The notes: generated by a model from the letters alone, not told the origin. 64,000 bases of DNA from an uncultured bacterium (GCA_964399495.1 CAYNQX010000011.1:16589-80588), one strand, 5' to 3'. Numbered from the stretch's first letter, positions 5,617 through 39,371 are shown. A program made the numbers and translations.

Positions 5617-6012
5617 TCAGTTGTCCAGGGCGCCCTCTTCGATCCAGCGCCCGATCGTCAGGATATCACCGTCGGCCAGAGGGGTGAGGCCCAGCGGCAT
5701 CCGGCTGCCGAAGTCGGGGTTCCCGCGGAGCTTCTGGTAGAGCACCGACGCGGTGCTGTCCCCCGCCGCCACGAGCGGCGCGCCGCCGTAGCCGTTCGCG
5801 GGCACGCCGACGAGCCCCGCCCAGCTATGGGTGAACGCGTGGCAATCCACGCAGACCTGCAGGAGCGGCGTCACGTCGGCGGCGAAGGAGATCGGTTCGG
5901 GATCGCCGTCCCCGCCGGGATCGATCACCGCCACGGGATCCCCCAGATCGGAGCAGCCGGCGGCGATCAGGATCGGAAGCGCAAGAAGAGGGAGTAGGCT
6001 CCGCCGCTGCAT
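5617..6012 (-). CDS. c-type cytochrome lipoprotein, planctomycete-type (PSCyt1-like) monohaem domain
   Basis: Lipoprotein signal MQRRSLLPLLALPILIAAGC. One CVDCH haem motif followed by ...GYGGAPLVAAGDSTASVLYQKLRG...SRMPLGLTPLADGDILTIGRWIEEGA, which resembles the PSCyt1 domain. The start codon is 1 nt from the yceI-like stop (TGAcATG). Confidence 0.55.
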   Translation of the reverse strand: MQRRSLLPLLALPILIAAGCSDLGDPVAVIDPGGDGDPEPISFAADVTPLLQVCVDCHAFTHSWAGLVGVPANGYGGAPLVAAGDSTASVLYQKLRGNPDFGSRMPLGLTPLADGDILTIGRWIEEGALDN

Positions 6013-6013
6013 G

Positions 6014-6613
6014 TCAATCCTCCGACTTCGTGATGCGGGCCACGAGGTCCACCTTCACCTGCTGCACCTCGTTCAACTTGAGAACGAGGAACTTGGGGCG
6101 CGAGATCTCGTGGTCCGCGAGATTGACGGGGAACTCCGTCTTCACGTGGAGCAGCCCGTCCTCGGGACGGGTGATCTCCACCGGCACCTCGATCGTGCGC
6201 GCGACTCCGTGCAGGTCGAACTCCCCGCGCAGGGTGAAGGTGGCGCTGCCGCCCACGCCGACCGCGGTCGTCGAGGGGTCCAGCAGCTCCGTCGCGGTGA
6301 AGGTCGCCTCGGGATACTTCCGCACCTCGAGGTGCCTTTCACGCATGTGCGCGTTGCGCTTCCTGAGCCCCGTGTCCAGGCTCGCCAGGTCCACCTTCAC
6401 GGCCACCTGAACACCGGCTGTGAGATTCCGCAGATCCGCGCTCACGCTGCCGGTGACCTTTCGCGTCTTGCCTTCGAAGGTCTCCATGGGCGCCTTCGAG
6501 ACAAAGCGCACCATGCTCTCCGCGTCGGGCGCGATCAGGTACTCCGCGGCCGTGGCGAACAGGGCCGGCGACAACAGGGTCAAGGTCAGGAATGCGATCA
6601 GCGTTCTCTTCAT
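6014..6613 (-). CDS. YceI-family periplasmic polyisoprenoid/quinone-binding protein
   Basis: Signal peptide plus typical YceI-like sequence (LIAPDAESMVRFVSKAPMETFEGKTRKVTGSV...). Confidence 0.8.
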   Translation of the reverse strand: MKRTLIAFLTLTLLSPALFATAAEYLIAPDAESMVRFVSKAPMETFEGKTRKVTGSVSADLRNLTAGVQVAVKVDLASLDTGLRKRNAHMRERHLEVRKYPEATFTATELLDPSTTAVGVGGSATFTLRGEFDLHGVARTIEVPVEITRPEDGLLHVKTEFPVNLADHEISRPKFLVLKLNEVQQVKVDLVARITKSED

Positions 6614-6638
6614 CCTCGGCTCCTTGCATCGGGTCGCA

Positions 6639-7757
6639 TCAGTAGAGGAAGTGGAGCACCAGCTCGGCCTGGAGGTGGTCTTCCTCCGCGAAGGCGTCGC
6701 CGGATTCGTAGCTCTCGTGATTCAGCATGGCCAGGATGCCCATGAAGGGGCTGGCCAGCAGGTCGCAGCCCAGGCCGATCTTGCGATGGCTGCCGGTGAG
6801 CCGGGCCGTGTCGGGGTCGTAGAAGTTCCAGGTGGCGCGGAGGTCGAGGCCTCGGCGCAGTTGCCAGGCCAGCTCCTGGCTGGCGGCCAGCGCCGTGATC
6901 TCGCCGTCCTCCTCATCCCTGCGCTCCCAGTCCCACTCCCCCACCCAGACCAGCGGTCCCCAGGCGAGGGAGGCGAAGGGGCCGGCCACCTGGCGTACGC
7001 TGCCGACGGCGGCCTCCTCGTCGCGGTAACCCGAAGCGCCCAGCGTCAGGTTCAGCGCGCCCAGGGCATGTCGCAACTCGGCGCGCAGCGCGAAGGCCGG
7101 CCTGTTGTCGCCGTCCATGAGCCGTCCGCCGGCGCCGTTGAGAACCCCGAGGCTGAGCGAGGCGTTCGAGCCGGGGAACAGGCCCAGCTCGAGGCCCACG
7201 TCGCTGTGTCCGGGCGGCGCGAAGCCCAGGTAGCGTCTCACGAACTGGCGGTGGTCGGCGAAGCGCCAGCCGTAGGCGGGGGCGAAGCGTCCGGCCTTCA
7301 CGTAGCCGCCGGCCGGCAGGACGAAGGCGAGGCCGTAGACCTCCGTCGCGCCGGAGAGACCCTGCTCCACGTGGAGGGCGAGCTTCTCGTCGGCCTGGAT
7401 GTGCAGGTAGAGGTCTCCCTGCATCTGGAAGAAGTTGTTGCCGGCCTTCCGCTGCCCCTCGGGCGAGTAGCGGTAGAGGGTGCGCAGGTCGGCGCCCAGG
7501 CTCACGGTTTCGCTGAGCGCGGGATCGATGCCCTCCATTGCCTCCATGTCGAGACGCCGCAGGCTCATCTCGTCGGGAATCAGATACTGGCTGGCGTAGG
7601 CGCTGCGCATGCCGCCGCCGGCGGGGTCGACGTGGCAGAGCAGGCACTTCTGGCCGTATCGCGCGCCGTATCGCGGCAGGGCCTGGGCGGCCGCGACCGT
7701 CAGGAGAATCAGGAGAGCCGTCAGGACGGCGCGGGGAACTATTGAGGACGGCGTCAA
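6639..7757 (-). CDS. putative outer-membrane beta-barrel protein with an N-terminal CXXCH haem-binding motif
   Basis: TTG start at 7757 with GGAGA 7 nt upstream gives the signal peptide MTPSSIVPRAVLTALLILLTVAAAQA. CLLCH follows immediately after the signal peptide. The body is rich in alternating/aromatic residues and the C-terminal residue is aromatic (...LVLHFLY), as in OM barrels. The ORF-track start at 7898 would add a non-signal extension. Confidence 0.5.
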   Translation of the reverse strand: MTPSSIVPRAVLTALLILLTVAAAQALPRYGARYGQKCLLCHVDPAGGGMRSAYASQYLIPDEMSLRRLDMEAMEGIDPALSETVSLGADLRTLYRYSPEGQRKAGNNFFQMQGDLYLHIQADEKLALHVEQGLSGATEVYGLAFVLPAGGYVKAGRFAPAYGWRFADHRQFVRRYLGFAPPGHSDVGLELGLFPGSNASLSLGVLNGAGGRLMDGDNRPAFALRAELRHALGALNLTLGASGYRDEEAAVGSVRQVAGPFASLAWGPLVWVGEWDWERRDEEDGEITALAASQELAWQLRRGLDLRATWNFYDPDTARLTGSHRKIGLGCDLLASPFMGILAMLNHESYESGDAFAEEDHLQAELVLHFLY

Positions 7758-7866
7758 GTCGTGTCTCCGTTTCTGCGGGTATCGAAACTCGGGACGCTCC
7801 CGACCGCCCGCTTCGAAGCGGCCGGAAGCGCCATCGGCTGTACCCGGGGGAGCCAGCCGATCCATC

Positions 7867-8841
7867 CTAGTGGTTGAAGGGGTCTCCGTCGTGGGCAAAG
7901 ACGTAGTCGGATCCGTTGCCGCCCGAGTTGGCGGCGCCGTGGCAGCCGACGCACATGCCTCCCATCACCTCGGCGCCCGTACCGCGAGCCTCCATCGAGA
8001 AGTCGGTCGTATCCAGGGCGAACCACTCCCAGTCGCCGTTGCTCGCATCGAAGCCCGCGCCGCGCTTGACCATGCCGGTCATGCCGATGATGGCGCCGGC
8101 GCCGTCGCGGACCTCCTTGGCGATCATGGTGCCCACGGGGTAACCCCAGTCGCCTTCGGCGGGATTGGCCGCGAGCTGCTTACGGAAGATGGTGCGCACG
8201 GCGTTCTCGTCGTTGCCGGCGTGGGCGGCGCCCAGCGCGGCGTCCGGGCCCTGCTCGCTGTCGATCTCGTGCCAGCTCGCGTAGTCGTCGAAGTCGCCGT
8301 CGGCGACCGCGAACTCGTAGGGGTGGGTGAACACGAAGTCCTCGCCCGCGGCGCCCGTGGCGCTGGTGTGGCAACCCTTGCACATACCGTTCATGAGATC
8401 CGCTCCGCTGTCCACGACATCGCCGCTGACGGGATCCAGCATGAAGTACTCCCAGTCGCCGCCATCGGCGTCGTAGCCCGCGGCGCGCTTCACCATGGCC
8501 AGCAGAGCGCCCTCGGCGGCCCACTGCTTATCGCCGGACGCGTCGAAGGTGAAGGTTTCCTTCACGAGGGCCGCGTCCTCGGGGTAGTCGGCGCGCGCGC
8601 CCCGGGACAGGGCCTGGGCGTTGGCGTGGATGCGCCGCGTGTACTCGCCGTCGTTCCCCGCGTGAGCGGCGCCGAGAAAGTCGGAGGGCGCGTTGGTGTA
8701 TTCCACCTGCTCCCAGCTTTCGTAACCGTCGAACTCCGTGGCGTCGTCGGGGTCGGTGGTGCCGCCGTCGTCGGTGCAGCCGACGGCGAAGAGGGCGATG
8801 AGCCCCAGCGGCAGGAGCAAGAGCATGGCGATTCGATTCAT
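7867..8841 (-). CDS. lipoprotein with two tandem cytochrome P460 / cytochrome c'-beta-like domains, each ending in CXXCH
   Basis: Lipobox LFAVGC. Internal duplication: ...LGAAHAGNDGEY...DGGDWEYFMLD...MNGMCKGCH and ...LGAAHAGNDENA...NGDWEWFALD...MGGMCVGCH. A C-terminal haem motif after a beta-rich domain fits the P460/c'-beta fold. Confidence 0.5.
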   Translation of the reverse strand: MNRIAMLLLLPLGLIALFAVGCTDDGGTTDPDDATEFDGYESWEQVEYTNAPSDFLGAAHAGNDGEYTRRIHANAQALSRGARADYPEDAALVKETFTFDASGDKQWAAEGALLAMVKRAAGYDADGGDWEYFMLDPVSGDVVDSGADLMNGMCKGCHTSATGAAGEDFVFTHPYEFAVADGDFDDYASWHEIDSEQGPDAALGAAHAGNDENAVRTIFRKQLAANPAEGDWGYPVGTMIAKEVRDGAGAIIGMTGMVKRGAGFDASNGDWEWFALDTTDFSMEARGTGAEVMGGMCVGCHGAANSGGNGSDYVFAHDGDPFNH

Positions 8842-15838: not shown

Positions 15839-16633
15839 TCAGGGCAACCGGTAGCGCACCGTGAACGGCCCGGTTTCGCCCGCGAAGAGAAACCGCTTCC
15901 AGAACACCAGGGGCGCGCCGTCGTGGTCGTAGCCCTTGACGCCGAAGGGCGAGGCGTCCACCAGCTCCGCGCCGCGGGGCAGCAGCACCTTGCGCATGAG
16001 GAAGGTGTCCTCGGAGAAGTCCCCCGCGAAGGAGTAGGTCCAGACGTCGCCCTCGCGGGTGACGCGGCCCGGATCGCTGTAGGCGACGTTGAACTCGTAG
16101 TTCTCCCCGGGCGCCACCGGCACCGCGAGCTTCACCTCGACGATGCGGCGTTTCTTCTTCATCCGCAGCTCGTGCGGGAGGACGTTCCCGTAGGCGTCCA
16201 CCACCCGCATGTTCTTCGTGCGCTCCACCTCCCAGTCCGCCACGCCCCAGCTCACCTTCGTGAGCAATCGTCCGCGGCCGTTCAAGCCCGAGACGTTCAC
16301 CCAGGTGACGGCCCCGCCGTCGGCCATGACCTGCTCGAACTGGCTGCGCGTCGCGACGCGGTCGCGGTGGTCGAAGTCCGGCAGCTCCTCGGAGCCGTCC
16401 ACGGTGGCGATCTGGTCGCCCGGCACGTCGTAGAACAGGGTCTCGCCGTTCTCGCCGGTGCCCTGAACGATGTAGCGGCTCTCCTGCACCGCGCGCACCC
16501 GACCCGTGATCACCTGGCCGTGGGCCATCACGATCACCGTGTCGTCCGATTTGGATCCCCGGCTCGACGCCCACGCCTCCGGCGCGGTGGCCACGAGCAG
16601 ACCGAGCATCAGGATCATCGTGTTCATCTTCAT
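15839..16633 (-). CDS. hypothetical secreted protein (signal peptide), no recognisable domain
   Basis: Signal MKMNTMILMLGLLVATAPEAWA. Overlaps the anti-sigma gene by 4 nt (ATGA), suggesting co-transcription with the ECF sigma and anti-sigma genes. Confidence 0.5.
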   Translation of the reverse strand: MKMNTMILMLGLLVATAPEAWASSRGSKSDDTVIVMAHGQVITGRVRAVQESRYIVQGTGENGETLFYDVPGDQIATVDGSEELPDFDHRDRVATRSQFEQVMADGGAVTWVNVSGLNGRGRLLTKVSWGVADWEVERTKNMRVVDAYGNVLPHELRMKKKRRIVEVKLAVPVAPGENYEFNVAYSDPGRVTREGDVWTYSFAGDFSEDTFLMRKVLLPRGAELVDASPFGVKGYDHDGAPLVFWKRFLFAGETGPFTVRYRLP

Positions 16634-17118
16634 CGCGAACCCCCTTCCGCCGACAGCTCGTCGGCGCTCAGATGACCAGGCGCAGCAGGCAGCTCCAGCG
16701 TGCCCGCCTCGAAGATGCCGCCGCCGACCTCCCAGCCGCCGTCCAGATAGACGATCACCGGGCCGCCCGTGAGGCGCGGCAGGGAGCCGTCGTTCGGGTC
16801 CAGCAGCGAGGCGAGGCCCAGGGCGAGAAGCAGGACGGCGGCGGCCAGGGTCCAGGCGCGGCCCTTGCCCCGGACGATGCGCAGGCGAACGATCTTGCCC
16901 GTCCGTTCCCCCTCGGCCCGTTCCAGGATCTCCTCCCGCAGCCCGGCGGGCGGCGCGAACTCCAGCAGGTCCCGCAGGGCCTTCCGCTCCGCGCGGCGCG
17001 CATCGGCCAGCGCCGCGCAGGATTCGCAGTCGGCCTGGTGGGCTTCGATCGCGGCGCCGTCGGCCGCTTCGCCGTCCAGCCAGCTCTCGAGGAGCGCGGC
17101 GAACTCGTCACAGCGCAT
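16630..17118 (-). CDS. anti-sigma factor, zinc-finger type with a single TM helix
   Basis: HQADCESC zinc motif near the N-terminus, central hydrophobic helix (WTLAAAVLLLALGLASLL). Overlaps the upstream ECF sigma gene. Confidence 0.65.
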   Translation of the reverse strand: MRCDEFAALLESWLDGEAADGAAIEAHQADCESCAALADARRAERKALRDLLEFAPPAGLREEILERAEGERTGKIVRLRIVRGKGRAWTLAAAVLLLALGLASLLDPNDGSLPRLTGGPVIVYLDGGWEVGGGIFEAGTLELPAAPGHLSADELSAEGGSR

Positions 17119-17659
17119 GTCCCGACCTCCTCAGGTTTTCACGCAGCATCTTCAGCGCTTTGTGTTTGCGGGACGCGACGGTGCCCGGCGCCACCTCGAG
17201 CGCCTCGGCGGTATCCAGATAGGAGAGGCCCTCCACTTCGACGAGCAGGAACACCGCGCGGAGCGGCTCGGGCAGGTCGGCCAGGGCCGCGTCCAGGGCG
17301 GCGCGCAGTTCGCGCCGCTCCAGTTCGCGGTCGGGGCCGGGGAGCTCGAGCGGCTTGCCGGGCGCGCCCGGTTCGTCGCCGGCCAACGTCAGCCAGCGCC
17401 GTTCGCTGCCGCGCTTCCTCAGCCGGCTGAGCGCGGCGTTGCGCGCGCAGCGGTAGAGAAAGGCGGAGCCGAGCTCACGGCCCTCCCGCAGGGCGGGTAG
17501 GGCCGACAGGAAGGCCTCCTGGCAGAGCTCGGCGGCGTGTTCGTCGTCGCCGGTCAGGGATCGGAGAAAGCGGAAGATCCCGGCGCCGTGGCGGTGGTAG
17601 AGGCGGGCCAGCGCGTCGCGCTCTCCGCTCTCCTTCCCCGTCTTCTTCGCCTGGATCAT
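17108..17659 (-). CDS. RNA polymerase sigma-70 factor, ECF subfamily
   Basis: Region 2 (...LYHRHGAGIFRFLRSL..., ELCQEAFL) and region 4 HTH (EGLSYLDTAEALEVAPGTVASRKHKALKML). Confidence 0.85.
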   Translation of the reverse strand: MIQAKKTGKESGERDALARLYHRHGAGIFRFLRSLTGDDEHAAELCQEAFLSALPALREGRELGSAFLYRCARNAALSRLRKRGSERRWLTLAGDEPGAPGKPLELPGPDRELERRELRAALDAALADLPEPLRAVFLLVEVEGLSYLDTAEALEVAPGTVASRKHKALKMLRENLRRSGHAL

Positions 17660-18846: not shown

Positions 18847-19386
18847 CTAGTGGTTGAAGTGGGCAGCGAAGTAGGCCAGATCGCCGACGGTCACGAGCAG
18901 GTCCCCGTTCATGTCCGCGCAGCTCCGGCCGGTGGACTGCCAGGCCGCGGCGAACAGGGCGAGGTCCTGCACCCTGACGGCGCAGTCCGCGTTGATGTCC
19001 GGCGAGTGGACCTGGGCGACGGTGGCCAGCAGAACACCGGTCGCGTCGATGAAGGTCACGCCGCCGTTCGCGAGACAGCAGCCGCCGATCCGCGGGTTGA
19101 AGGTGACGACCCCCGCGGCGTTGCTCACGGCGCTCATGAGCGGGAAGCCCTGGCCCGGGAAGGCGCAGAGGCTCGACGCGCAGGTTCCGTTGAAGCTCAT
19201 GAATATCGTGGCCCCAGCGCAGGGCAGGCCGGCCGCGTCGTTGACCTGCCCGACGACGGGGATGTCGCCGGAGGGACAGAGGACGATGTTGGAAGGGAAC
19301 ACGCTGGTGGTCGGAGACGCGCACTGGGCCGCGGCGAATCCGGGGAGGAGCAGCAGCAAGGTACTGAGAACGACGAGCTGTTTCAT
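18847..19386 (-). CDS. secreted Cys-rich protein with a C-terminal dockerin-like (two Ca-binding repeat) domain
   Basis: Signal MKQLVVLSTLLLLLPGFAAA. Two repeats DINADCAVRVQDLALFAAAW and DMNGDLLVTVGDLAYFAAHF matching D-x-N-x-D-x-x-V-x-x-x-D-L of dockerin repeats. Confidence 0.5.
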   Translation of the reverse strand: MKQLVVLSTLLLLLPGFAAAQCASPTTSVFPSNIVLCPSGDIPVVGQVNDAAGLPCAGATIFMSFNGTCASSLCAFPGQGFPLMSAVSNAAGVVTFNPRIGGCCLANGGVTFIDATGVLLATVAQVHSPDINADCAVRVQDLALFAAAWQSTGRSCADMNGDLLVTVGDLAYFAAHFNH

Positions 19387-19712
19387 GGGGTACCCTTTCC
19401 GATTTCCAGGTAAACCGTCTCCCGGGGCGGAGCGGCGCAGGGATAATCAGGCGGGGCAGGCACTATTATACAATATATCCCAAATATCGCACAACTGTCC
19501 GCTCCTCTCGACGGGCCCAACACCGAGATCCCAGAGTTCTTCAAGGATTTCAGGACCTCTTGACCTGGATCAATCACTCCTGACCACTTTGTACCTATCT
19601 TCACGTGGTCGCTGACATATCGGTGACGCGTCGATCGATCGATCCAAGGCGGCCGAGTCGACAAGGCCGCCGAGCACGGGAGTGGGATTCCCCACGCCTA
19701 CAAGGAGAATCA

Positions 19713-21158
19713 ATGAAGACCCTGACAGCTCTGCTGCTCATCTGTCTGATCGCTGCGCCGGCTCTGGCTTTCCAGTCGAACCTGCCCAGTGAGCTTTCGG
19801 AGACGAGCAAAGAGTGCCTGGAGTGTCATAAGGATGACAACCCGGCCCTCTACCAGCAGTGGGGAGACAGCAAGCACCACGGCGCCAACGTTGGCTGCTA
19901 CGAGTGCCATGCCGCCGAAAAGGGCGACAAGGACGTGCTTCGCGACGGTACCCACGACGACTTCGTGATCGCGACCATCGTGTCGCCTCTCGACTGCGGC
20001 CGCTGCCACTCCAAGGAAACGGACGAGTTCCTGAACTCGCACCACTCCAAGGCCGGACGCATCATGGGCTCCCTGGACAACCTCCTCGCCGAGGTCGTCG
20101 AGGGCAATAACGGCCTGGTCACCCCCGCCTTCCCGAACGGTATCTCCGCCGCGGCCGTCAACGGTTGCTGGCAGTGCCACGGAAGCGAGATCAAGGTGAA
20201 CAAGGACGGTACCCTGGATGCCGCGACCTGGCCGAACAGCGGCATGGGCCGCGTGAACCCGGACGGCTCCGAGGGTTCCTGCTCCGCGTGCCACAGCCGT
20301 CACAGCTTCTCCGCGGCGCTCGCGCGCCACCCCGAGAACTGCGGCAAGTGCCACATGGGTCCGGATCACCCGCAGCTCGAGGTGTACAACGAGTCCAAGC
20401 ACGGCATCGCGTTCCGTGCGAACATCGACAAGATGAACCTGAACTCCTCCAAGTGGGTTGTCGGCGAGGACTACAGCGCCGCCCCCACCTGCGCCACCTG
20501 CCACATGAGCGCCACGGCGAACCAGGACATCACGCACAACATCGGTCTGCGCGTGAAGTGGAACAACCGTCCGCCGCGTTCCAAGCTGTCGCACACGACG
20601 GACAAGAAGTGGAACCTGGATTCCCAGAAGATCCACGCCGACACCCGTCGTGAGAACATGATGGACGTCTGCAACAACTGCCACCAGGAGCAGTTCTCCC
20701 GGAACTTCTTCATCCAGTACGAGGGCATCCTCGACCTGTACGATCAGAAGTACGCGGAGCCCGGCCTGAGACTCTACAAGGCCGCCACCGCCGTGCTGAA
20801 GACGAACCCCGACTACGTCAAGTTCGTCCATCCGATCGACTGGACCTGGTTCGAGCTGTGGCACCACGAGGGTCGCCGCGTGCGTCACGCCGCCGCCATG
20901 CAGGCGCCGGACTACACGCACTGGCACGGCACCTACGATCTCGCCAAGCACTGGATGACCAAGTACGTGCCCGAGATCAACGACATCATTCACGAGTACA
21001 AGAAGAGCGCGCCCAAGGAAGTCGCCGTTCTCGAGCAGACTCTGAAGGATGTCCAGAACACGGACAACTGGAAGTGGTCCATCAACAAGGAGGACCCGGC
21101 GATCAAGAAGGCGCGTCAGAAGCGTCAGGAGGAGTTCCGCAGCCGCTACAGCAAGTAG
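19713..21158 (+). CDS. octahaem c-type cytochrome, hydroxylamine oxidoreductase (HAO/HDH)-family-like
   Basis: Signal peptide plus 8 CXXCH motifs (CLECH, CYECH, CGRCH, CWQCH, CSACH, CGKCH, CATCH, CNNCH) in ~480 aa. The C-terminal region has W/H/Y-rich THWHGTYDLAKHW. AGGAGA before ATG 19713. The ORF-track start at 19605 is unlikely. Confidence 0.7.
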   Translation: MKTLTALLLICLIAAPALAFQSNLPSELSETSKECLECHKDDNPALYQQWGDSKHHGANVGCYECHAAEKGDKDVLRDGTHDDFVIATIVSPLDCGRCHSKETDEFLNSHHSKAGRIMGSLDNLLAEVVEGNNGLVTPAFPNGISAAAVNGCWQCHGSEIKVNKDGTLDAATWPNSGMGRVNPDGSEGSCSACHSRHSFSAALARHPENCGKCHMGPDHPQLEVYNESKHGIAFRANIDKMNLNSSKWVVGEDYSAAPTCATCHMSATANQDITHNIGLRVKWNNRPPRSKLSHTTDKKWNLDSQKIHADTRRENMMDVCNNCHQEQFSRNFFIQYEGILDLYDQKYAEPGLRLYKAATAVLKTNPDYVKFVHPIDWTWFELWHHEGRRVRHAAAMQAPDYTHWHGTYDLAKHWMTKYVPEINDIIHEYKKSAPKEVAVLEQTLKDVQNTDNWKWSINKEDPAIKKARQKRQEEFRSRYSK

Positions 21159-21187
21159 CCCGCGGAATCCGATCGCTGATATGAATT

Positions 21188-21221
21188 GAGGGGCGGGGTT
21201 CATCCCCGCCCCTTTTCATTT
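21188..21221 (+). terminator. rho-independent terminator after the octahaem cytochrome gene
   Basis: GGGGCGGGGttcatCCCCGCCCCttttcattt. Confidence 0.65.
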
Positions 21222-21322: not shown

Positions 21323-21835
21323 ATGAGAAGCCTACGCAACCTTTGCATCTACACCGCATTGATCCTCATCGCCACCGCCCCTGTAGCCGCCGCCCTCCCC
21401 GCTTCCGGTTCCATCCTGGTCGTCGAGGCCACCCTCATCGAGGGCCTGGCCGACTATCACGGCGAAGTCGTGGAGTCCGAAACCGAGACCATCGCGCGCG
21501 ACGGCAACCGCTACGTGCTCGAGGGCTCCGGCCTGAGCTCCCTGGATGGGCTCCAGGCCCTCTTCCTGGTGGACCACCGCCGCGACACGCAGAAGTCCGC
21601 CGGCCTCCAGCGCGAGCGCTGGCAGGAGGTGCTCCCCGTGAGCGAGGGCTTCTTCGAGCTGAACGTGCTCCCGGACGAGCCCTTCTGGTACCAGATCGCC
21701 GACGTGAACGGCGAGCTGGGCCTCTTCGGTCAGGGTAACCTGCTCCGCTCCGAGGGCGGCGAGGGCGAGCCCTTCCAGGTGTGGCGCATCGACGGATTGA
21801 AGCTCGTGGACCGCTCCGACATCGCGCTGCGCTGA
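21323..21835 (+). CDS. hypothetical secreted protein
   Basis: Signal MRSLRNLCIYTALILIATAPVAAA. No recognisable domain. High GC3 coding bias. Confidence 0.45.
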   Translation: MRSLRNLCIYTALILIATAPVAAALPASGSILVVEATLIEGLADYHGEVVESETETIARDGNRYVLEGSGLSSLDGLQALFLVDHRRDTQKSAGLQRERWQEVLPVSEGFFELNVLPDEPFWYQIADVNGELGLFGQGNLLRSEGGEGEPFQVWRIDGLKLVDRSDIALR

Positions 21836-21906
21836 ACCGCGCGCGCATTGACAGAGCCCCGCGCTTCCCCCTAGCCTCTCGGTTCCGAGCCGAAGGGGAG
21901 CGAGGC

Positions 21907-22680
21907 ATGGCCGCGGGCATCATCTTCGACATCAAGCGCTTCTCGATCCACGACGGGCCGGGCATCCGCACCACCGTGTTCATGAAGGGCTGTCCCCTGG
22001 ACTGCTGGTGGTGCCACAATCCGGAGAGCCGCCGGGCCGAGCCGGCCGTGCTGGCGGGCGAGGAGGTCGGACGGCGCATCGAGGTGGCCGAACTCCTGGC
22101 CGAGATCGAGAAGGACCAGCCCTTCCACGACGAATCCGGCGGCGGCGTCACCTTTTCCGGCGGCGAGCCCCTTGCTCAACCCGAGTTCCTGCTGGCGGCC
22201 CTCGCCGCCTGTGGAGAGCGGGAGATCCATCGCGCCGTGGACAGCACGGGCCACGCGCCCGCCTATCTGCTGCGCCGCGTGGCAGGGGAGACCGAGCTCT
22301 TCCTCTACGACCTGAAGCACATGGACCCCCAGCGCCATCTGCGCTATACGGGTCGGGAGCTCGCGCCGATCCTGACGAACCTGCGCCTGCTGGCGGAGCT
22401 CGGAAGGCCGGTCGAGATCCGGATACCCGTGATCCCCGGCGTGAACGACGACCCGGACAACCTCGACGCCGCGGGGCGATTCGCGGCCGAGCTCGACAAC
22501 GTGACGGGGCTGGTGCTGCTGCCCTTCCATGCGATGGCCATGCACAAGTACGAGCGCTTCGGCCTGGAGCTGCGCCTGCCCGAGACCCAGGAGCCCGAGC
22601 CCGACGCGCTGCGCACCGCCGCCGACCGGCTCGCCGCCCTGGGCCTGAACGTGAGGATCGGAGGATTCGATGATGAATGA
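21907..22680 (+). CDS. glycyl-radical enzyme activating protein (radical SAM, PflA family)
   Basis: CPLDCWWCHN (CX3CX2C) cluster motif, FSGGEPL, and the DGPGIRTTVF N-terminus typical of GRE activases. Overlaps the GRE gene by 11 nt. Confidence 0.85.
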   Translation: MAAGIIFDIKRFSIHDGPGIRTTVFMKGCPLDCWWCHNPESRRAEPAVLAGEEVGRRIEVAELLAEIEKDQPFHDESGGGVTFSGGEPLAQPEFLLAALAACGEREIHRAVDSTGHAPAYLLRRVAGETELFLYDLKHMDPQRHLRYTGRELAPILTNLRLLAELGRPVEIRIPVIPGVNDDPDNLDAAGRFAAELDNVTGLVLLPFHAMAMHKYERFGLELRLPETQEPEPDALRTAADRLAALGLNVRIGGFDDE

Positions 22681-25030
22681 GCGCGTATCCCGCCTGCGCA
22701 CCGAGAGCTTCGAGGCCGCGGTGAGCTTCTCGGCCGAGCGCGCCGAGCTTATCACCGACTTCTATCACGAGCAGCACGGCAAGGCCTCGGTGCCGGTCAC
22801 CCGCGCGCGCGCCTTCGCGCATCTGTGTCGGCACAAGAGCCTCTGGCTCGGCGAGGGCGAGCTGATCGTCGGCGAGCGCGGGCCGCGCCCCAAGGCCGTG
22901 CCCAGCTACCCGGAGATCACCTGCCACACGGTCGAGGATCTCGAGATCCTGCGCAGCCGGCCCATGACGCCCTATTCAGTGAGCGATGGCGATATCGCCA
23001 TCTACCGCGAGAAGGTGATTCCCTACTGGCGGGAGCGCTGCCTCAGGGAGCGGATCTTCGAGGGGCTGGCATCCGAATGGCGCGGCGCGTATGGCGCCGG
23101 CGTCTTCACCGAGTTCATGGAACAACGCGCGCCGGGACACACCACCCTGGACGGCAAGCTCTACGAGCGGGGCCTCCTCGATCTGCAGGCCGACATCGAT
23201 GAAACCCTGGCCGATCTCGATTTCCACGCCGACCCGGAAGCCTCGGCGAAGCGCGAACAGCTCCACGCCATGCGGATCGCCGCCGACGGCGCCCTCGAGT
23301 TCGCACATCGCCACGCGGCGCTGGCCGAGGAGCGAGCCGCGGCCTGTTCCGACCCGGAGCGCCGAGCCGAGCTCGAGCGCATCGCGGCCATCTGCCGCCA
23401 CGTGCCCGCCCACGCGCCGCGCGACTTCCACGAGGCGCTGCAGGCCTACTGGTTCGTCCACCTGGGCACCATCACCGAGCTCAACGGCTGGGACGCCATG
23501 AATCCCGGGCACCTCGACCGTCACCTGCTCCCCTTCTACGAGCGCGGCCTCGCCGACGGCACGCTCACGCGCGAGCGCGCGAAGGAGCTGCTGGCCTGCT
23601 TCTGGATCAAGTTCAACAACCAGCCCGCGCCGCCGAAGGTGGGCGTGACGGCGGCCGAGAGCGGCACCTACAACGACTTCACCAACATCAACCTCGGCGG
23701 CCTGCTGGCCGACGGCGCAGACGGCGTGAGCGAGCTCTCCTATCTGATCCTCGAGGTGGTCGACGAGATCCACCTGCTGCAACCCCAGTGCAACCTGCAG
23801 CTCAGCCGCAAGAATCCGGATCGCTTCCTCAAGGCCGCGTGCCGGGTGGTCCGCAAGGGCTACGGCTATCCGTCGATCTTCAACGCCGACGGCGTCGTCG
23901 AGCAGATGGTGCGCGTGGGCAAGCGGATCGAGGACGCCCGCGACGGCGGCAGCAGCGGCTGCGTGGAGACGGGCGCCTTCGGCAAGGAGGCCTACATCCT
24001 CACCGGCTACTTCAACACGCCGAAGGTGCTGGAGATCGCGATGCACGATGGTGTCGACCCGCGCGGCGGCGAGCGGGTGGGGCCGGCCACCGGCGAGACG
24101 CGCGACTTCGAGAACTTCGACGCGCTCTACGCCGCCTTCGAGACCCAGCTCCAGCACTTCGTCGACATCAAGCTGGCGGGCAACCAGGTGATCGAGCGGC
24201 TCTACGCCGAGTCGATGCCCGCGCCCTTCCTGTCGCTCTACATCGACGACTGCATCGCGAAGGGCCGCGACTACAACGCCGGCGGCGCCCGCTACAACAC
24301 CAGCTACGTGCAGGGCGTGGGCATCGGCAGCATCACCGACGCGCTCTCGGCCATCCGCACCCACGTGTTCGAGGGCGACCTGACGATGGACGAGCTGCTG
24401 AACGCCCTCGCCGCCGACTTCGGGAACGACGAGCCCCTGCGCCGCCGCCTCGCCGACGAGACGCCGCGCTACGGCAATGATGACGACGCGGCCGACGCCA
24501 TCATGCGCCGCGTATTCGACACGCTGTATGGCGCCGTGGACGGCCGCCCCAACACCCGCGGCGGCGACTACCACCTGGACATGCTGCCCACCACCTGCCA
24601 CATCTACTTCGGCTCGGTCACCGGCGCCACGGCCGACGGCCGCCGCGCGGGCGCGCCGCTGTCGGAGGGGATCTCGCCCGTGCAGGGCGCGGATAGGTTG
24701 GGACCCACGGCCGTTCTCAAGAGCGCCGCCAAGATGGACCACCTGCGCACCGGCGGCACCCTGCTCAACATGAAGTTCCTTCCGCGTCTGCTCGCCGACC
24801 GCGAAGGGATCGACGGCCTCGCCCAGCTCATCCGCGGCTACTTCCGCCTGGACGGCCACCATCTGCAGTTCAACGTGGTGGACGTCGACACGCTGCGCCG
24901 CGCCCAGGAGAGGCCCGAGGAGCATCGCGATCTCATCGTGCGGGTGGCCGGTTACAGCGACTACTTCGTGGATATCGGGCGGGAGCTGCAGGACGAGATC
25001 ATCGCGCGGACGGCGCAGGAGGGGCTCTAG
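22670..25030 (+). CDS. glycyl radical enzyme, PFL2 / glycerol-dehydratase-like 1,2-eliminase subfamily (substrate unknown)
   Basis: 786 aa. Glycine-radical motif RVAGYSDYF near the C-terminus. Active-site GSSGCVETG (Cys-x-Glu as in the CutC/GDH/HypD eliminases). No small-subunit genes nearby. Confidence 0.85.
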   Translation: MMNERVSRLRTESFEAAVSFSAERAELITDFYHEQHGKASVPVTRARAFAHLCRHKSLWLGEGELIVGERGPRPKAVPSYPEITCHTVEDLEILRSRPMTPYSVSDGDIAIYREKVIPYWRERCLRERIFEGLASEWRGAYGAGVFTEFMEQRAPGHTTLDGKLYERGLLDLQADIDETLADLDFHADPEASAKREQLHAMRIAADGALEFAHRHAALAEERAAACSDPERRAELERIAAICRHVPAHAPRDFHEALQAYWFVHLGTITELNGWDAMNPGHLDRHLLPFYERGLADGTLTRERAKELLACFWIKFNNQPAPPKVGVTAAESGTYNDFTNINLGGLLADGADGVSELSYLILEVVDEIHLLQPQCNLQLSRKNPDRFLKAACRVVRKGYGYPSIFNADGVVEQMVRVGKRIEDARDGGSSGCVETGAFGKEAYILTGYFNTPKVLEIAMHDGVDPRGGERVGPATGETRDFENFDALYAAFETQLQHFVDIKLAGNQVIERLYAESMPAPFLSLYIDDCIAKGRDYNAGGARYNTSYVQGVGIGSITDALSAIRTHVFEGDLTMDELLNALAADFGNDEPLRRRLADETPRYGNDDDAADAIMRRVFDTLYGAVDGRPNTRGGDYHLDMLPTTCHIYFGSVTGATADGRRAGAPLSEGISPVQGADRLGPTAVLKSAAKMDHLRTGGTLLNMKFLPRLLADREGIDGLAQLIRGYFRLDGHHLQFNVVDVDTLRRAQERPEEHRDLIVRVAGYSDYFVDIGRELQDEIIARTAQEGL

Positions 25031-38465: not shown

Positions 38466-39371
38466 TCACTTGCCGACTCCCGCTGCTCGCACCACCGGAA
38501 CAGACTCCCGACGTCGAGCCTCACGCTTGTAGCGCCAGGCCCAGCGGATCGCATCCCGTTCGCACTCCCGGACGCACTCACCGCAAGCGAAGCAATCCGA
38601 GGTCTGGCGTCCCGCGCCGACCTTCTGACTGAGCGAGGCGCAGGGCGTCGCCGTCAGGCAGTCGCCGCAGCGATTGCAAGTGGCGGTCACCCCCAACTCG
38701 AGCAGGCTGATCCGTTCGAAGGCCCACGCCAGCAGACCCACCGGGCACACGGCGGAGCAGAAGGGGCGATGTACGATGAAGCTCGTAAAAACGAGGAACG
38801 CGAAGGGCAGCCACACCGCAGTCGAGTTCCAGCCCCGCCAGTCGAATGCTTTCGCCGGATCGATCCAGTCGTAGAGGATCACCGACTTCCATGCGAGCAG
38901 CCCCCCGAACACGATGAGTAGACCGATCCGCAGAGCGACCCCGACCCTCATCGGAATCACTCGAAGGCGGCGGCGGCGGAGCTTGCCGGTCAACTCCTGC
39001 ACGAAACCCACAGGACACACCCAGCCGCAGAAGAGACGCCCACCGGCCAGCGTCGAGATCATGATGACGGCCAGGAGAACGAACATGCCGATGGCGGGAG
39101 CGCCGTAATAGATCGGCAGCACGATGCTGTGGCTGAAGGCAGTGAGCGGTAAGGGATTCAGGTCGATGTAATACACGATTCGCGGGAAGAGGGACGCCAG
39201 GACTCCACCGAGCAGGAGGAAGGCGACAACTCGATGGACCACCGGTAGCCATCGCCGACGACGGAAGAGGCTGAGATGCCCCACCCCTGCAAGGAGAAGC
39301 AGGAAGACGGTGACATAGGTCCAACTGTGAACCTGCTCGTAGAAGTTCTTCCAGAGAACGTCGAGCATCAT
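38466..39371 (-). CDS. membrane-bound 4Fe-4S polyferredoxin, NapH/MauN/NosR-C-like
   Basis: Several TM helices. Two CxxCP motifs on the cytoplasmic side (CGWVCPVG, CSAVCPVG) plus ferredoxin-type CNRCGDC...CASL and CFACGECVREC. Confidence 0.65.
   Translation of the reverse strand: MMLDVLWKNFYEQVHSWTYVTVFLLLLAGVGHLSLFRRRRWLPVVHRVVAFLLLGGVLASLFPRIVYYIDLNPLPLTAFSHSIVLPIYYGAPAIGMFVLLAVIMISTLAGGRLFCGWVCPVGFVQELTGKLRRRRLRVIPMRVGVALRIGLLIVFGGLLAWKSVILYDWIDPAKAFDWRGWNSTAVWLPFAFLVFTSFIVHRPFCSAVCPVGLLAWAFERISLLELGVTATCNRCGDCLTATPCASLSQKVGAGRQTSDCFACGECVRECERDAIRWAWRYKREARRRESVPVVRAAGVGK

What the first reader, a model, noticed from the sequence alone, without database searches (positions are those of the whole stretch)
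19387..21221. Octahaem HAO-family cytochrome in a heterotroph-like context, with a distinctive AT-rich leader
A 482-aa protein with a signal peptide and exactly 8 CXXCH motifs spaced as in hydroxylamine oxidoreductase / epsilon-Hao-type octahaem enzymes. It is monocistronic, with its own strong terminator. It is preceded by a 326-bp region much more AT-rich than the rest of the window, containing TTGACC, (TCGA)3 and AT-stretch elements. Together with the P460-like protein, this implies hydroxylamine/nitrite/NO chemistry in an organism that otherwise looks like an aerobic heterotroph (tyrosine catabolism). It is unclear whether it is an oxidative HAO (Tyr cross-link) or a reductive epsilon-Hao-like nitrite/hydroxylamine reductase.
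Basis: partly seen in the sequence, partly recalled or inferred. Interest (0 to 1): 0.6.

Follow-up and report, generated by a model that had tools for sequence, protein, structure and literature searches.

The report
Octahaem HAO-like nitrite reductase gene
This is a real gene for a secreted eight-haem enzyme of the hydroxylamine-oxidoreductase family, but it belongs to a widespread and already described branch that most likely reduces nitrite when oxygen is absent, so it is an ordinary member of a known kind.

Summary
ATG 19713 to stop 21158 (+) encodes a 481-aa protein with a Sec signal peptide and exactly eight CXXCH motifs. Upstream lies a 326-bp divergent intergenic region; downstream lies a strong intrinsic terminator.

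The protein is an HAO-family octahaem cytochrome. Nothing matches Otr, MccA or ONR. Its closest solved relative is the Ignicoccus octahaem nitrite reductase IhOCC, which has no P460 haem. It is 57-91% identical to thousands of proteins from non-nitrifying anaerobes. These include the cable-bacterial pMHC and Calditrichota "epsilon-Hao", which the literature treats as nitrite reductases of nitrate ammonification.

In 80 related genomes the gene often sits next to nap nitrate-reductase genes, or behind a tetrahaem-cytochrome/NrfC/NrfD quinol-dehydrogenase module. No invariant Tyr could be placed at the cross-link position. The nearest candidate, Tyr401, is Trp or Ile in 16 of 200 orthologues. 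NeHAO's distal Tyr334 is an invariant Arg here.

The "distinctive leader" is an ordinary promoter region. It carries a conserved FNR/CRP-type box at class-II spacing and a (TCGA)n repeat whose copy number varies between strains.

Best reading: an anaerobically induced reductive Hao. The product and the electron donor in this organism are unknown. Verdict: new member of a known kind, modest interest.

The parts
19387..19712 (.). Divergent intergenic region: promoter and about 105-nt 5' UTR of the hao-like gene, and presumably the promoter of the opposite-strand gene 18847-19386
   Evidence: 326 bp, 56.4% GC; other intergenic regions 51-69%. 88% identical to the leader of a 91%-identical orthologue, with a diverged middle block. 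No Rfam family matches, and the fold z-score is -1.6.
19560..19573 (+). FNR/CRP-family binding box TTGACCTGGATCAA (consensus TTGAY-N4-RTCAA)
   Evidence: Only match in the 64-kb window; 0.03 expected by chance. In the orthologous leader of L090/L091 (TTGATACAGGTCAA) the half-sites still fit the TTGAY/RTCAA consensus, though each has one substitution, while 3 of 4 spacer bases differ. The same pattern lies upstream of the orthologue in L001, L013, L014, L044, L062, L074 and L078, against a background of 0.016 per 550 bp.
19596..19601 (+). Candidate -10 hexamer TATCTT. It starts 29.5 bp downstream of the box centre, the class-II FNR geometry, which predicts a transcription start near 19608
   Evidence: Read from the sequence. 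TATGTT is at the same place in L090. This is an inference from consensus; the simple sigma-70 scan did not call it.
19631..19642 (+). (TCGA)3 short tandem repeat in the 5' UTR, polymorphic in copy number
   Evidence: 3 copies in the window, 4 in L081-L084 (which encode the identical protein), 2 in L090/L091.
19702..19707 (+). Shine-Dalgarno sequence AAGGAG, 5 nt before the ATG
   Evidence: Sequence; conserved in L090.
19713..21158 (+). CDS: 481-aa periplasmic octahaem cytochrome c of the HAO family (pMHC / epsilon-Hao-like reductive branch)
19713..19769 (+). Sec signal peptide (19 aa, ALA|F cleavage site)
   Evidence: Sequence. This is inference; no predictor was run.
21188..21221 (+). Intrinsic terminator: 11-bp stem with 9 G-C pairs, 5-nt loop, T-rich tail

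Best explanation
The gene encodes a periplasmic octahaem cytochrome c of the hydroxylamine-oxidoreductase family. It belongs to the reductive branch, which has no Tyr cross-link. Within that branch it falls in the conserved group of about 480-aa proteins that includes the cable-bacterial pMHC, the Calditrichota "epsilon-Hao" and, by the literature, the orange Beggiatoa octahaem cytochrome.

**Proposed mechanism.**
- The protein is exported by Sec and loaded with eight c-type haems.
- Seven bis-His haems pass electrons to the five-coordinate haem 4 (CWQCH, residue 152).
- There, nitrite (possibly also NO or NH2OH) is bound in a pocket formed by the conserved Asp218-His219 pair and an invariant Arg286. 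It is reduced, most likely as far as ammonium.
- Transcription is monocistronic, from a class-II FNR/CRP-dependent promoter. The enzyme should therefore be made when oxygen is absent, or when N-oxides are present.
- In many relatives the electrons come from quinol through an adjacent tetrahaem-cytochrome/NrfC-like/NrfD-like module, or the gene sits beside nap. In this organism the donor is not encoded nearby and is unknown.

**Shown:** family membership, motif conservation, gene contexts in relatives, and presence and conservation of the FNR-type box.

**Inferred:** substrate, product, direction of catalysis, regulation and oligomeric state.
For: **Family.**
- PF13447 scores 8.7e-29.
- PDB sequence hits are HAO-family proteins only. 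The best is IhOCC 4qo5 (4e-44; 7e-60 with a family profile). NeHAO scores about 1e-25 and Kustc0458 (6h5l) 7e-21.
- Foldseek finds only 4qo5.
- hhalign against a profile of oxidative HAOs gives probability 99.9.

**Group membership.**
- More than 7,500 homologues were found, the listed best 120 being 64-91% identical to the query. The best 80 genome loci are 56-77% identical.
- Hosts include Electrothrix/Electronema (63-65% identical), Calditrichota (64%), Nitrospirota, Marinimicrobia, Hydrogenedentota, Verrucomicrobiota and Planctomycetota.

**Context in relatives.**
- 26-28 of 80 loci carry tetrahaem cytochrome c, a TAT-exported 4Fe-4S NrfC-like protein and NrfD, on the same strand next to hao and mostly upstream of it. 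Pfam confirmed this on L054.
- 17 of 80 loci have napA within 5 kb.
- The 81%-identical orthologue L092 has napA-G-H-B immediately upstream, divergently transcribed.

**Literature.**
- C. abyssi reduces nitrate, lacks NrfA, and has epsilon-Hao next to nap (PMC5317091).
- The cable-bacterial pMHC clade is sister to epsilon-Hao and is expressed during DNRA (bioRxiv 10.1101/2020.02.22.960823).
- BOGUAY_0691 has nitrite reductase activity (PMC6449678).
- IhOCC is a nitrite reductase without P460 (PMC9250108).
- HAOs without the cross-link are reductases (PMC8042395).

**Active site, across 200 orthologues.**
- Asp218 and His219 are 200/200. They align with NeHAO Asp267-His268.
- NeHAO Tyr334 is replaced by Arg286, also 200/200.
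- No Tyr falls opposite NeHAO Tyr467 in either alignment.
- Tyr401 is Y 184, W 9, I 7.

**Regulation.** The FNR-type box is unique in the window, conserved, and enriched upstream of orthologues. In Electrothrix L013 a Crp/FNR-family regulator gene lies directly upstream of hao.

**Anaerobic capacity of the host.** A glycyl-radical enzyme and its activase are at 21781-25030.
Against: - No biochemical data exist for this protein or for any orthologue closer than about 57-65% identity.
- The window copy has no nap genes, no NrfBCD-like module and no other obvious electron donor within about 20 kb. A respiratory role is therefore extrapolated from relatives.
- The alignment of the C-terminal loop to the Tyr467 region of NeHAO has low confidence. 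MAFFT and hhalign disagree (H403 versus L410). A secondary-structure-guided alignment could place Tyr401, conserved at 92%, at the cross-link position.
- The AlphaFold model is poor (pLDDT 71; TM 0.33 to IhOCC) and contains no haems, so the active site could not be inspected.
- The native orange Beggiatoa homologue also oxidised NH2OH and N2H4 in vitro.
- Ca. Thioglobus autotrophicus carries a homologue of that orange cytochrome, on a sister lineage, yet does not grow on nitrite.
- The promoter assignment rests on consensus matching only.
Confidence: 0.62

Rival explanations
1. The enzyme is reductive, but the physiological product is not ammonium. It could reduce nitrite to NO, as Kuenenia HAOr does. 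Or it could reduce nitrite to hydroxylamine, which a hybrid-cluster protein or the nearby P460-domain protein then handles (the 'reverse-HURM' pathway proposed for Nautilia).
For: - HAOr without the cross-link releases NO under physiological reductants.
- The reverse-HURM pathway has been discussed for environmental epsilon-Hao-like genes.
- A tandem P460-domain protein lies 11 kb away in the window.
- The clade has its own invariant His/Arg-rich C-terminal motif, WHHEGRRxRH...HWHGTY. IhOCC and NeHAO lack it. It could tune the product.
Against: - Cable bacteria and C. abyssi, which carry orthologues and lack NrfA, produce ammonium from nitrate.
- Epsilon-Hao enzymes reduce nitrite and NH2OH in vitro (which cites Haase 2017).
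- Kustc0458 is only a distant relative (E 7e-21, partial coverage) and needs a dihaem partner that is absent here.
- No hcp gene is in the window.
Confidence: 0.15
2. The enzyme detoxifies nitrite, NO or hydroxylamine rather than serving respiration. It would be a stand-alone periplasmic scavenger fed by non-specific periplasmic cytochromes.
For: - In this window the gene is monocistronic and has no dedicated quinol-dehydrogenase or nap partner.
- About half of the 80 related loci also show no recognisable partner.
- Ca. Thioglobus autotrophicus, which has a homologue of the orange cytochrome, does not respire nitrite.
- An FNR/Dnr-type box is equally compatible with induction by N-oxide stress.
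Against: - The gene is tightly linked to Nap or to NrfBCD-like modules in many relatives, which argues for a respiratory chain.
- The protein is highly conserved across phyla.
- Partner genes could lie elsewhere in the genome, since only a contig of about 70 kb is known.
Confidence: 0.13
3. The enzyme is an oxidative P460-type HAO. Tyr401 (or Tyr408) cross-links to haem 4 of the neighbouring subunit, and the enzyme oxidises hydroxylamine or hydrazine.
For: - Tyr401 lies in a loop between two predicted helices, like the loop that carries Tyr467 in NeHAO. The local sequences resemble each other (PDYTHW against WTYTEGW).
- Tyr401 is conserved at 92% and Tyr408 at 100%.
- The native orange Beggiatoa homologue showed NH2OH and N2H4 oxidase activity.
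Against: - Tyr401 is Trp or Ile in 16 of 200 orthologues that share the same motif and operon contexts.
- IhOCC has Trp at the position of 401 and Tyr at the position of 408, and has no P460 haem.
- Neither MAFFT nor hhalign puts a Tyr opposite Tyr467.
- NeHAO Tyr334 is Arg here.
- No haoB, c554, cM552, amo or hzs genes appear in the window, and none is a recurrent neighbour.
- The contexts seen are nap and quinol dehydrogenases.
- The FNR-type promoter argues against an aerobic oxidative role.
Confidence: 0.05
4. The enzyme acts on a non-nitrogen substrate (sulfite, tetrathionate, metals), or is only an electron-transfer protein.
For: Multihaem cytochromes of this superfamily are promiscuous in vitro. 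Many related loci give no functional clue.
Against: - The catalytic Asp-His pair is conserved and one open-coordination haem is expected.
- The genetic linkage in relatives is specifically to nap.
- There is no similarity to Otr or MccA.
Confidence: 0.05

Closest known systems
Cable-bacterial periplasmic multihaem cytochrome (pMHC) and the orange Ca. Maribeggiatoa octahaem cytochrome BOGUAY_0691. This clade also holds Nitrospirota, Calditrichota and Gammaproteobacteria sequences and is sister to epsilon-Hao.
   Same: - 63-65% identical to the Electrothrix and Electronema proteins, and of the same length (about 480 aa).
- Same eight CXXCH motifs.
- Same invariant C-terminal motif.
- FNR-type box upstream in Electrothrix as well.
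- The literature's proposed function is periplasmic reduction of nitrite to ammonium.
   Different: - In cable bacteria the gene follows or flanks the nap operon. Here it is solitary, with no nap within the window.
- I could not retrieve the BOGUAY_0691 sequence. Its relation to the query rests on the 57% identity to the cable-bacterial protein reported.
Epsilon-Hao of Campylobacterota (Nautilia, Campylobacter, Caminibacter) and the "epsilon-Hao" of Caldithrix abyssi
   Same: - HAO-family octahaem protein reported to lack the cross-linking Tyr.
- Reduces nitrite and hydroxylamine.
- Linked to nap.
- 64% identical to a Calditrichota MAG orthologue that lies behind nap genes.
   Different: - By the published tree, the Campylobacterota enzymes form the sister clade, not the same clade.
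- No Campylobacterota sequence was available here for direct comparison.
- Those systems were described with nap linkage. The NrfBCD-like module found in many relatives of the query is not part of that description.
IhOCC, the octahaem cytochrome c nitrite reductase of Ignicoccus hospitalis (PDB 4QO5)
   Same: - Best solved-structure match (E 4e-44; 7e-60 with a profile).
- Shares the roughly 28-residue insertion between haem motifs 4 and 5.
- Same haem order.
- No P460 haem.
   Different: - Only about 24% identical overall.
- IhOCC lacks the WHHEGRRxRH...HWH motif, having LFYSNSIRY...TFKR instead.
- It is archaeal and membrane-associated.
NrfA with NrfBCD (E. coli-type cytochrome c nitrite reductase system)
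   Same: Works like it. In about a third of related loci the Hao gene occupies the place of nrfA, next to a small multihaem cytochrome, a TAT-exported 4Fe-4S protein and an NrfD-type membrane subunit.
   Different: - Not homologous at the family level used here: eight haems rather than five.
- The catalytic haem is His-ligated through CXXCH, not Lys-ligated through CXXCK.
- The module is absent from this window.
Oxidative HAO / HOX / HDH (N. europaea HAO, Kuenenia kustc1061 and kustc0694)
   Same: - Same superfamily and haem-motif order.
- Identical spacing of motifs 3-4, 5-6 and 6-7.
- Conserved Asp-His pair.
   Different: - No invariant Tyr at the cross-link position.
- Tyr334 is replaced by Arg.
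- About 38 residues between motifs 4 and 5, against 10.
- About 65-90 residues shorter.
- No haoB, c554 or cM552 partners.
- NCBIfam HDH scores 67 bits against a cutoff of 900.

Membership tests
HAO family of octahaem cytochromes c (PF13447; clade 1 of Soares et al. 2022: HAO/HDH and IhOCC) | Eight c-type haem-binding motifs in one periplasmic polypeptide | tested here: met
   Eight CXXCH at residues 35, 62, 95, 152, 190, 210, 260 and 320. There are no other Cys pairs. A Sec signal peptide is present.
HAO family of octahaem cytochromes c (PF13447; clade 1 of Soares et al. 2022: HAO/HDH and IhOCC) | Significant sequence similarity to solved HAO-family members and not to other octahaem families (Otr, MccA, ONR) | tested here: met
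   PF13447 at 8.7e-29. PDB hits are 4qo5, 4fas/1fgj/6m0p, 6h5l, 6hif, 4n4j and 6t5e only. No Otr, MccA or ONR hit at E<=1. hhalign to an oxidative-HAO profile gives probability 99.9.
HAO family of octahaem cytochromes c (PF13447; clade 1 of Soares et al. 2022: HAO/HDH and IhOCC) | Catalytic haem 4 with His (CXXCH) proximal ligation and a distal Asp-His pair | tested here: met
   The fourth motif is CWQCH and there is no CXXCK. Asp218-His219 align with NeHAO Asp267-His268 and are 200/200 in orthologues. Five-coordination itself cannot be tested from sequence.
HAO family of octahaem cytochromes c (PF13447; clade 1 of Soares et al. 2022: HAO/HDH and IhOCC) | Homotrimer built on C-terminal helices | not testable with these tools
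   The model predicts long C-terminal helices (326-362, 374-395, 404-429, 434-448, 462-480). No multimer prediction is available.
Oxidative P460-type HAO/HOX/HDH | Tyr aligned with NeHAO Tyr467, which cross-links to haem 4 of the adjacent subunit | tested here: inconclusive
   The NeHAO sequence was verified against 4fas, and Tyr467 lies in GGWTYTEGW. MAFFT puts Tyr467 opposite His403. hhalign puts it opposite Leu410, with no confidence. Neither is a Tyr. A shift of 2 residues would reach Tyr401, and the loop has pLDDT below 50.
Oxidative P460-type HAO/HOX/HDH | Strict conservation of the cross-linking Tyr among orthologues | tested here: not met
   Tyr401 is Y 184, W 9, I 7 in 200 orthologues that share an otherwise invariant motif. 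Tyr408 is invariant, but IhOCC also has Tyr there and has no P460 haem.
Oxidative P460-type HAO/HOX/HDH | Distal Tyr334 (NeHAO numbering) in the active-site pocket | tested here: not met
   WANY(334)P in NeHAO aligns with WNNR(286)P in the query. Arg is 200/200 in orthologues.
Oxidative P460-type HAO/HOX/HDH | Genomic partners haoB, cytochrome c554 and cM552, or amo or hzs genes | tested here: not met
   None is in the annotated window. None is among the recurrent neighbours in 80 loci. Only a contig of about 70 kb of this genome is known.
Reductive Hao: pMHC / epsilon-Hao-like nitrite reductases | Sequence membership in the clade that contains the cable-bacterial pMHC and the Calditrichota epsilon-Hao | tested here: met
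   63-65% identity over the full length to Electrothrix/Electronema (L012-L016) and 64% to Calditrichota (L015). They share the invariant C-terminal motif. This rests on identity and motif; no tree was built.
Reductive Hao: pMHC / epsilon-Hao-like nitrite reductases | Genetic linkage to periplasmic nitrate reductase (nap) or to a quinol-dehydrogenase module | tested here: not met
   Not met for the window copy, which is solitary. Met in relatives: napA within 5 kb in 17 of 80 loci and in L092, and an NrfB/C/D-like module in 26-28 of 80 loci.
Reductive Hao: pMHC / epsilon-Hao-like nitrite reductases | Nitrite or hydroxylamine reductase activity with negligible NH2OH oxidation, and no 460-nm band | not testable with these tools
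   This needs purified protein. Literature data exist only for epsilon-Hao, IhOCC, HAOr and BOGUAY_0691.
Octahaem tetrathionate reductase (Otr), MccA, and ONR/NrfA-type nitrite reductases | Sequence similarity to the family; Lys-ligated catalytic haem (CXXCK in ONR/NrfA); catalytic haem in the N-terminal module (Otr, MccA) | tested here: not met
   No sequence hit to 1sp3, 4rkm or 2ot4 at E<=1. No CXXCK. Foldseek hits to NrfA and ONR have E>=2.

The most novel reading that the evidence does not exclude
In the roughly 92% of orthologues that keep Tyr401, including this one, the tyrosine does cross-link to haem 4 of the neighbouring subunit. A widespread enzyme of non-nitrifying anaerobes would then carry a P460-type cofactor and be truly bifunctional. 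It would oxidise NH2OH or N2H4 as well as reduce nitrite, as was reported for the native orange Beggiatoa protein. The Trp and Ile variants would be purely reductive derivatives.
Probability: 0.06. Interest if true: 0.75.

Novelty: new member of a known kind. Interest (0 to 1): 0.3.

Why it matters
HAO-like genes are routinely annotated "hydroxylamine oxidoreductase/dehydrogenase" and are easily read as signs of nitrification. This case shows that the annotation misleads. The gene belongs to a very large, highly conserved group that probably carries nitrite reduction (DNRA-type or related) in many uncultured anaerobes and facultative anaerobes that lack NrfA. That matters for nitrogen budgets in low-oxygen habitats.

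Three by-products of this work are useful for annotating and testing the group, although none of them is unexpected:
- a recurrent tetrahaem/NrfC/NrfD-Hao operon;
- an invariant Arg in place of the HAO distal Tyr, together with a clade-specific His/Arg-rich C-terminal motif;
- an FNR-type promoter.

For this window itself the finding is ordinary.

Tried and rejected
- **Structure-based placement of the cross-link Tyr.** The AlphaFold2 model built from 42 homologues has pLDDT 71, with the haem core and the 396-405 loop below 50. It superposes poorly even on IhOCC (TM 0.33, rmsd 21 A). It was not usable for residue-level inference. No coordinates or multimer/haem modelling were available.\n- **Sequence placement of Tyr467.** phmmer and hmmsearch alignments to NeHAO stop at about residue 361. 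MAFFT and global hhalign disagree with each other. I relied on conservation instead.\n- **Naming of epsilon-Hao representatives.** A cluster look-up of 10 representatives returned only MAG names (Planctomycetota, Brocadiaceae, Desulfobacterales) and no Campylobacterota. A direct comparison with characterised epsilon-Hao was therefore not possible.\n- **BOGUAY_0691.** Neither the published primers nor the N-terminus was found in any sequence held. MacGregor 2013 is not in the library.\n- **RNA element in the leader.** There is no Rfam hit above noise (radC, 18.9 bits against a gathering score of 40). The fold z-score is -1.6. Rejected.\n- **Flanking small secreted proteins as partners** (179 aa upstream, 170 aa downstream). 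Neither has a homologue next to hao in any other lineage. Rejected.\n- **Otr, MccA or ONR identity.** Rejected.\n- **The longer GTG-19605 ORF (517 aa).** Rejected because of the frame-shifting repeat polymorphism.\n- **The antisense 497-aa ORF (19710-21203).** It was treated as a shadow ORF of a high-GC gene and not pursued.
Full report
**1. What is there**

The + strand carries an ORF from ATG 19713 to the stop at 21158 (481 aa).

- ORF lists extend it to GTG 19605. That extension is not real: strain variants encoding the identical protein have one more TCGA unit in the leader, which shifts the frame.
- The protein starts with a typical Sec signal, MKTLTALLLICLIAAPALA|FQ.
- It has exactly eight CXXCH motifs, at residues 35, 62, 95, 152, 190, 210, 260 and 320. 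There is no CXXCK and no spare Cys outside the signal peptide. Composition-matched shuffles give 0.03 motifs on average.
- The upstream gene (18847-19386) is divergent.
- A strong intrinsic terminator lies at 21188-21214, with an 11-bp stem holding 9 G-C pairs. A 164-bp gap follows before the next gene.
- The gene is therefore monocistronic.

**2. Family**

- Pfam gives PF13447 (Multi-haem_cyto) at 8.7e-29.
- NCBIfam gives only a weak partial hit to HDH, 67 bits against a cutoff of 900.
- Against all PDB sequences, the only hits are HAO-family proteins:
  - IhOCC of Ignicoccus hospitalis (4qo5), 4e-44
  - N. europaea HAO, about 1e-25
  - Kuenenia Kustc0458 (6h5l), 7e-21
  - HDH, 5e-14
  - HOX, 3.5e-13
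- With a profile of 42 homologues, IhOCC rises to 7e-60 and the others stay at 1e-14 to 1e-25.
- Motif spacing matches NeHAO for intervals 3-4, 5-6 and 6-7. The 4-5 interval is 38 residues against 10 in NeHAO; IhOCC has the same insertion.
- Foldseek with the AlphaFold model finds only 4qo5 (E 2.5e-10). The model is poor (pLDDT 71, TM 0.33) and I do not use it for detail.

**3. How common, and where**

- The word-indexed search returns more than 7,500 homologues. The listed best 120 are 64-91% identical, about 480 aa long, and named "hydroxylamine oxidoreductase/dehydrogenase" or left unnamed.
- The exhaustive search of 50%-identity representatives finds 1,623 clusters at E<=1e-3. Only two representatives stand for the query's own group. 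The group is therefore tight and highly conserved.
- In GTDB species genomes the best 80 loci (56-77% identical) come from:
  - Electrothrix and Electronema (cable bacteria)
  - Calditrichota
  - Nitrospirota/Thermodesulfovibrionia, including magnetotactic forms
  - Marinimicrobia
  - Hydrogenedentota
  - Verrucomicrobiota
  - Planctomycetota, including Scalindua and Brocadiaceae MAGs
  - Eisenbacteria
  - Acidobacteriota
  - Gammaproteobacteria
- None of these is a classical nitrifier.
- The exact protein is on 22 metagenome contigs with the same neighbours as the window.

**4. Context in relatives**

I called ORFs within 5 kb of the orthologue in all loci and clustered them. Two patterns recur.

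- **A quinol-dehydrogenase module (26-28 of 80 loci).** It consists of three genes on the same strand next to hao, mostly upstream of it:
  - a tetrahaem cytochrome c of about 205-260 aa;
  - a TAT-exported 4Fe-4S protein of about 300-340 aa (NrfC/HybA-like);
  - an NrfD-family membrane protein of about 420 aa.

  Pfam confirmed all three on L054. The same set lies downstream of hao in L089. This is the arrangement of nrfBCD with Hao in the place of NrfA.
- **nap genes (17 of 80 loci).** napA lies within 5 kb, usually with napD, napG and napH. This holds for all the cable-bacterial loci and for Calditrichota L015. The 81%-identical orthologue L092 has napA-napG-napH-napB immediately upstream, divergently transcribed.

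Other contexts:

- Nitrospirota loci add a haem-sensor (Tll0287-like) histidine kinase and an OmpR-type regulator upstream.
- Electrothrix L013 has a Crp/FNR-family regulator directly upstream.
- Marinimicrobia place the gene after an ACIII-like cluster and a porin, and before molybdenum-cofactor biosynthesis genes.
- No haoB, c554 or cM552 cluster recurs.
- The window copy has none of these partners. Its two small secreted neighbours have no homologues next to hao elsewhere.

**5. Literature**

- Caldithrix abyssi reduces nitrate, lacks NrfA, and has an "epsilon-Hao" next to nap. That protein is proposed to be its nitrite reductase (PMC5317091).
- The cable bacterium Ca. Electronema sp. GS performs DNRA and expresses nap plus a periplasmic multihaem cytochrome (pMHC). 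The pMHC clade also holds Nitrospirae, Calditrichaeota and Gammaproteobacteria sequences. It is 57% identical to the orange Ca. Maribeggiatoa cytochrome BOGUAY_0691 and is sister to epsilon-Hao (bioRxiv 10.1101/2020.02.22.960823).
- Native BOGUAY_0691 had nitrite reductase activity, and also NH2OH and N2H4 oxidase activity, in vitro (PMC6449678).
- IhOCC is described as an octahaem nitrite reductase without a P460 haem (PMC9250108).
- Kuenenia HAOr, which lacks the Tyr cross-link, reduces nitrite and cannot oxidise NH2OH. Epsilon-Hao enzymes behave likewise (PMC8042395).
- Environmental "hao" genes without the Tyr are abundant in anoxic mat layers (PMC8940962).
- At 63-65% identity to the cable-bacterial proteins, the window protein falls in the range of this pMHC group.

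**6. Oxidative or reductive?**

I verified my NeHAO sequence against 4fas and 1fgj. The cross-linking Tyr467 sits in GGWTYTEGW, and the Kuenenia HOX Tyr sits in NQTYGNG.

*Well-aligned core.*
- Asp218-His219 match the catalytic Asp267-His268.
- NeHAO's distal Tyr334 (WANYP) is Arg286 here (WNNRP).
- Asp218, His219 and Arg286 are each invariant in 200 orthologues.

*C-terminal loop, where the alignment is weak.*
- MAFFT puts Tyr467 opposite His403.
- hhalign against a profile of 41 oxidative HAOs puts it opposite Leu410, with no confidence.
- Matching predicted helix ends would allow Tyr401.

*Conservation, which I used instead.*
- Within the otherwise invariant motif WHHEGRRxRH-x3-M-x2-PD[Y]THWHGTY, residue 401 is Tyr in 184 orthologues, Trp in 9 and Ile in 7.
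- The variants include orthologues with the NrfBCD-like operon and the anammox-lineage copies.
- A residue that must form two covalent bonds to a haem would not tolerate Trp or Ile.
- Tyr408 is invariant. IhOCC also has a Tyr there, and a Trp at the position of 401, and has no P460 haem.

Taken with the contexts and the literature, the reductive assignment is well supported. It is not proven.

**7. The leader**

- The 326-bp region has 56.4% GC. Other intergenic regions in the window range from 51 to 69%. It is an ordinary divergent promoter region.
It is the only match in 64 kb, with 0.03 expected.
- A TATCTT hexamer starts 29.5 bp downstream of the box centre (19596-19601). That is class-II FNR geometry and predicts a transcription start near 19608 and a 5' UTR of about 105 nt. 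This is an inference from consensus.
- In the 91%-identical orthologue the box reads TTGATACAGGTCAA. Each half-site has one substitution but still fits the TTGAY/RTCAA consensus, while 3 of 4 spacer bases differ.
- The same pattern lies upstream of the orthologue in seven further loci from four or more phyla. The background is 0.016 per 550-bp window.
- (TCGA)3 is a repeat whose copy number varies between strains: 2, 3 or 4 copies.
- No Rfam family matches, and the UTR fold is not unusual (z -1.6).

**8. The host**

- The window encodes O2-dependent tyrosine catabolism: HPPD, homogentisate dioxygenase and FAA hydrolase.
- It also encodes a glycyl-radical enzyme with its activase immediately downstream of hao.
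- It encodes an F-type ATP synthase, and secreted proteins with T9SS sorting tails.
- This suggests a facultatively anaerobic heterotroph of the FCB group, not a strict aerobe.
- hao is somewhat GC-poorer (62.2%) than its neighbours (67.8 +/- 2.2%). Together with the patchy phyletic distribution, this is compatible with horizontal acquisition.

**9. Verdict**

This is a real, intact, probably anaerobically induced gene for a reductive HAO-family octahaem cytochrome. It is an orthologue of the pMHC/epsilon-Hao-like putative nitrite reductases.

- **Shown:** family membership, orthology range, motif conservation, contexts in relatives, and the conserved FNR-type box.
- **Inferred:** substrate, product (ammonium against NO or NH2OH), direction of catalysis, regulation and the electron donor.
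- **Classification:** a new member of a known kind, of modest interest.

Noticed in passing
window 7867-8841 (-), with neighbours at 5617-7898 (-): A 324-aa secreted protein has two tandem cytochrome-P460-family domains (PF16694, 3.4e-17), each ending in a CXXCH (MCKGCH, MCVGCH). Downstream on the same strand lie three more genes: a 419-aa protein with one N-terminal CXXCH and no Pfam hit; a YceI-like protein (6014-6613); and a 131-aa monohaem protein. I did not check whether the P460 Lys cross-link residue is present.
   Followed up: partly
L054:5143-9419, with similar operons in L001, L002, L043, L045, L049, L055-L057, L059-L061, L063-L068, L070-L073, L076, L077, L079 and L089: A recurrent operon in Planctomycetota, Verrucomicrobiota, Hydrogenedentota and others: tetrahaem cytochrome c, TAT-exported 4Fe-4S NrfC-like protein, NrfD-like membrane protein, then the Hao orthologue. 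It is an nrfBCD-type quinol-dehydrogenase module with Hao in the place of NrfA. A conserved 150-aa protein with no Pfam hit often follows hao (12 loci).
   Followed up: partly
window 20862-20939 (residues 384-409 of the protein): A clade-specific, almost invariant C-terminal motif: WHHEGRRxRH-x3-M-x2-PD[Y/W/I]THWHGTY. H384, H385, R388, R391, H392, W404, H405 and Y408 are conserved in at least 199 of 200 orthologues. The motif is absent from IhOCC and from oxidative HAOs. IhOCC has the same haem set without these His residues, so they are unlikely to be haem ligands. Their role is unexplained; they may line the active site or a channel of the neighbouring subunit.
   Followed up: partly
window 19631-19642; L081-L084 and L090/L091 leaders: The (TCGA)n repeat in the 5' UTR has 3 copies in the window, 4 in other contigs encoding the identical protein, and 2 in the 91%-identical orthologue.
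   Followed up: yes
window 21781-25030 (+): A glycyl-radical enzyme (PFL-like, 786 aa) and its radical-SAM activase lie directly downstream of hao and a 170-aa secreted protein of unknown function. The substrate of this enzyme was not examined.
   Followed up: no
window 38466-39371 (-): A 301-aa protein with Fer4_5 and 4Fe-4S motifs (NapH/RdxA/NosR-like membrane ferredoxin type) sits next to a 290-aa ORF with no Pfam hit. It could be a quinol-oxidising partner for periplasmic reductases, but it is 17 kb from hao.
   Followed up: no
L017, L020, L021, L023, L028, L030, L032, L048, L080 (Nitrospirota): In Nitrospirota a sensor kinase with a Tll0287-like (haem-binding) periplasmic domain and an OmpR-type response regulator precede hao. 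A Zn-dependent phospholipase-C-like protein (245 aa) follows it. napA is divergent upstream.
   Followed up: partly
L085/L086, L009, L011 (Marinimicrobia): Hao follows an alternative-complex-III-like cluster (molybdopterin/FeS fusion, NrfD, ActD, cytochrome c) and an Alginate_exp-type porin. Molybdenum-cofactor biosynthesis genes follow hao. This exact protein is listed in 364 index blocks of the public assembly collection (24 contigs carrying it were read).
   Followed up: no
window 51559-54534 (-), 57798-59531 (-), 45957-47675 (+): Large secreted proteins (CotH/LTD, subtilase) carry Por_Secre_tail (T9SS) and FlgD_ig domains. These point to an FCB-group organism. Two large Ser/Thr kinases (39447-42497 and 47757-51476) are also present.
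   Followed up: no
window 19713-21158: The hao gene is 62.2% GC against 67.8 +/- 2.2% for 18 other genes of the window. This is a mild compositional outlier, compatible with horizontal acquisition.
   Followed up: yes
window 15839-17659 (-): An ECF sigma factor (183 aa), a putative anti-sigma factor (162 aa) and a 264-aa secreted protein form an operon two genes upstream of hao. No link to hao was found in other lineages.
   Followed up: no
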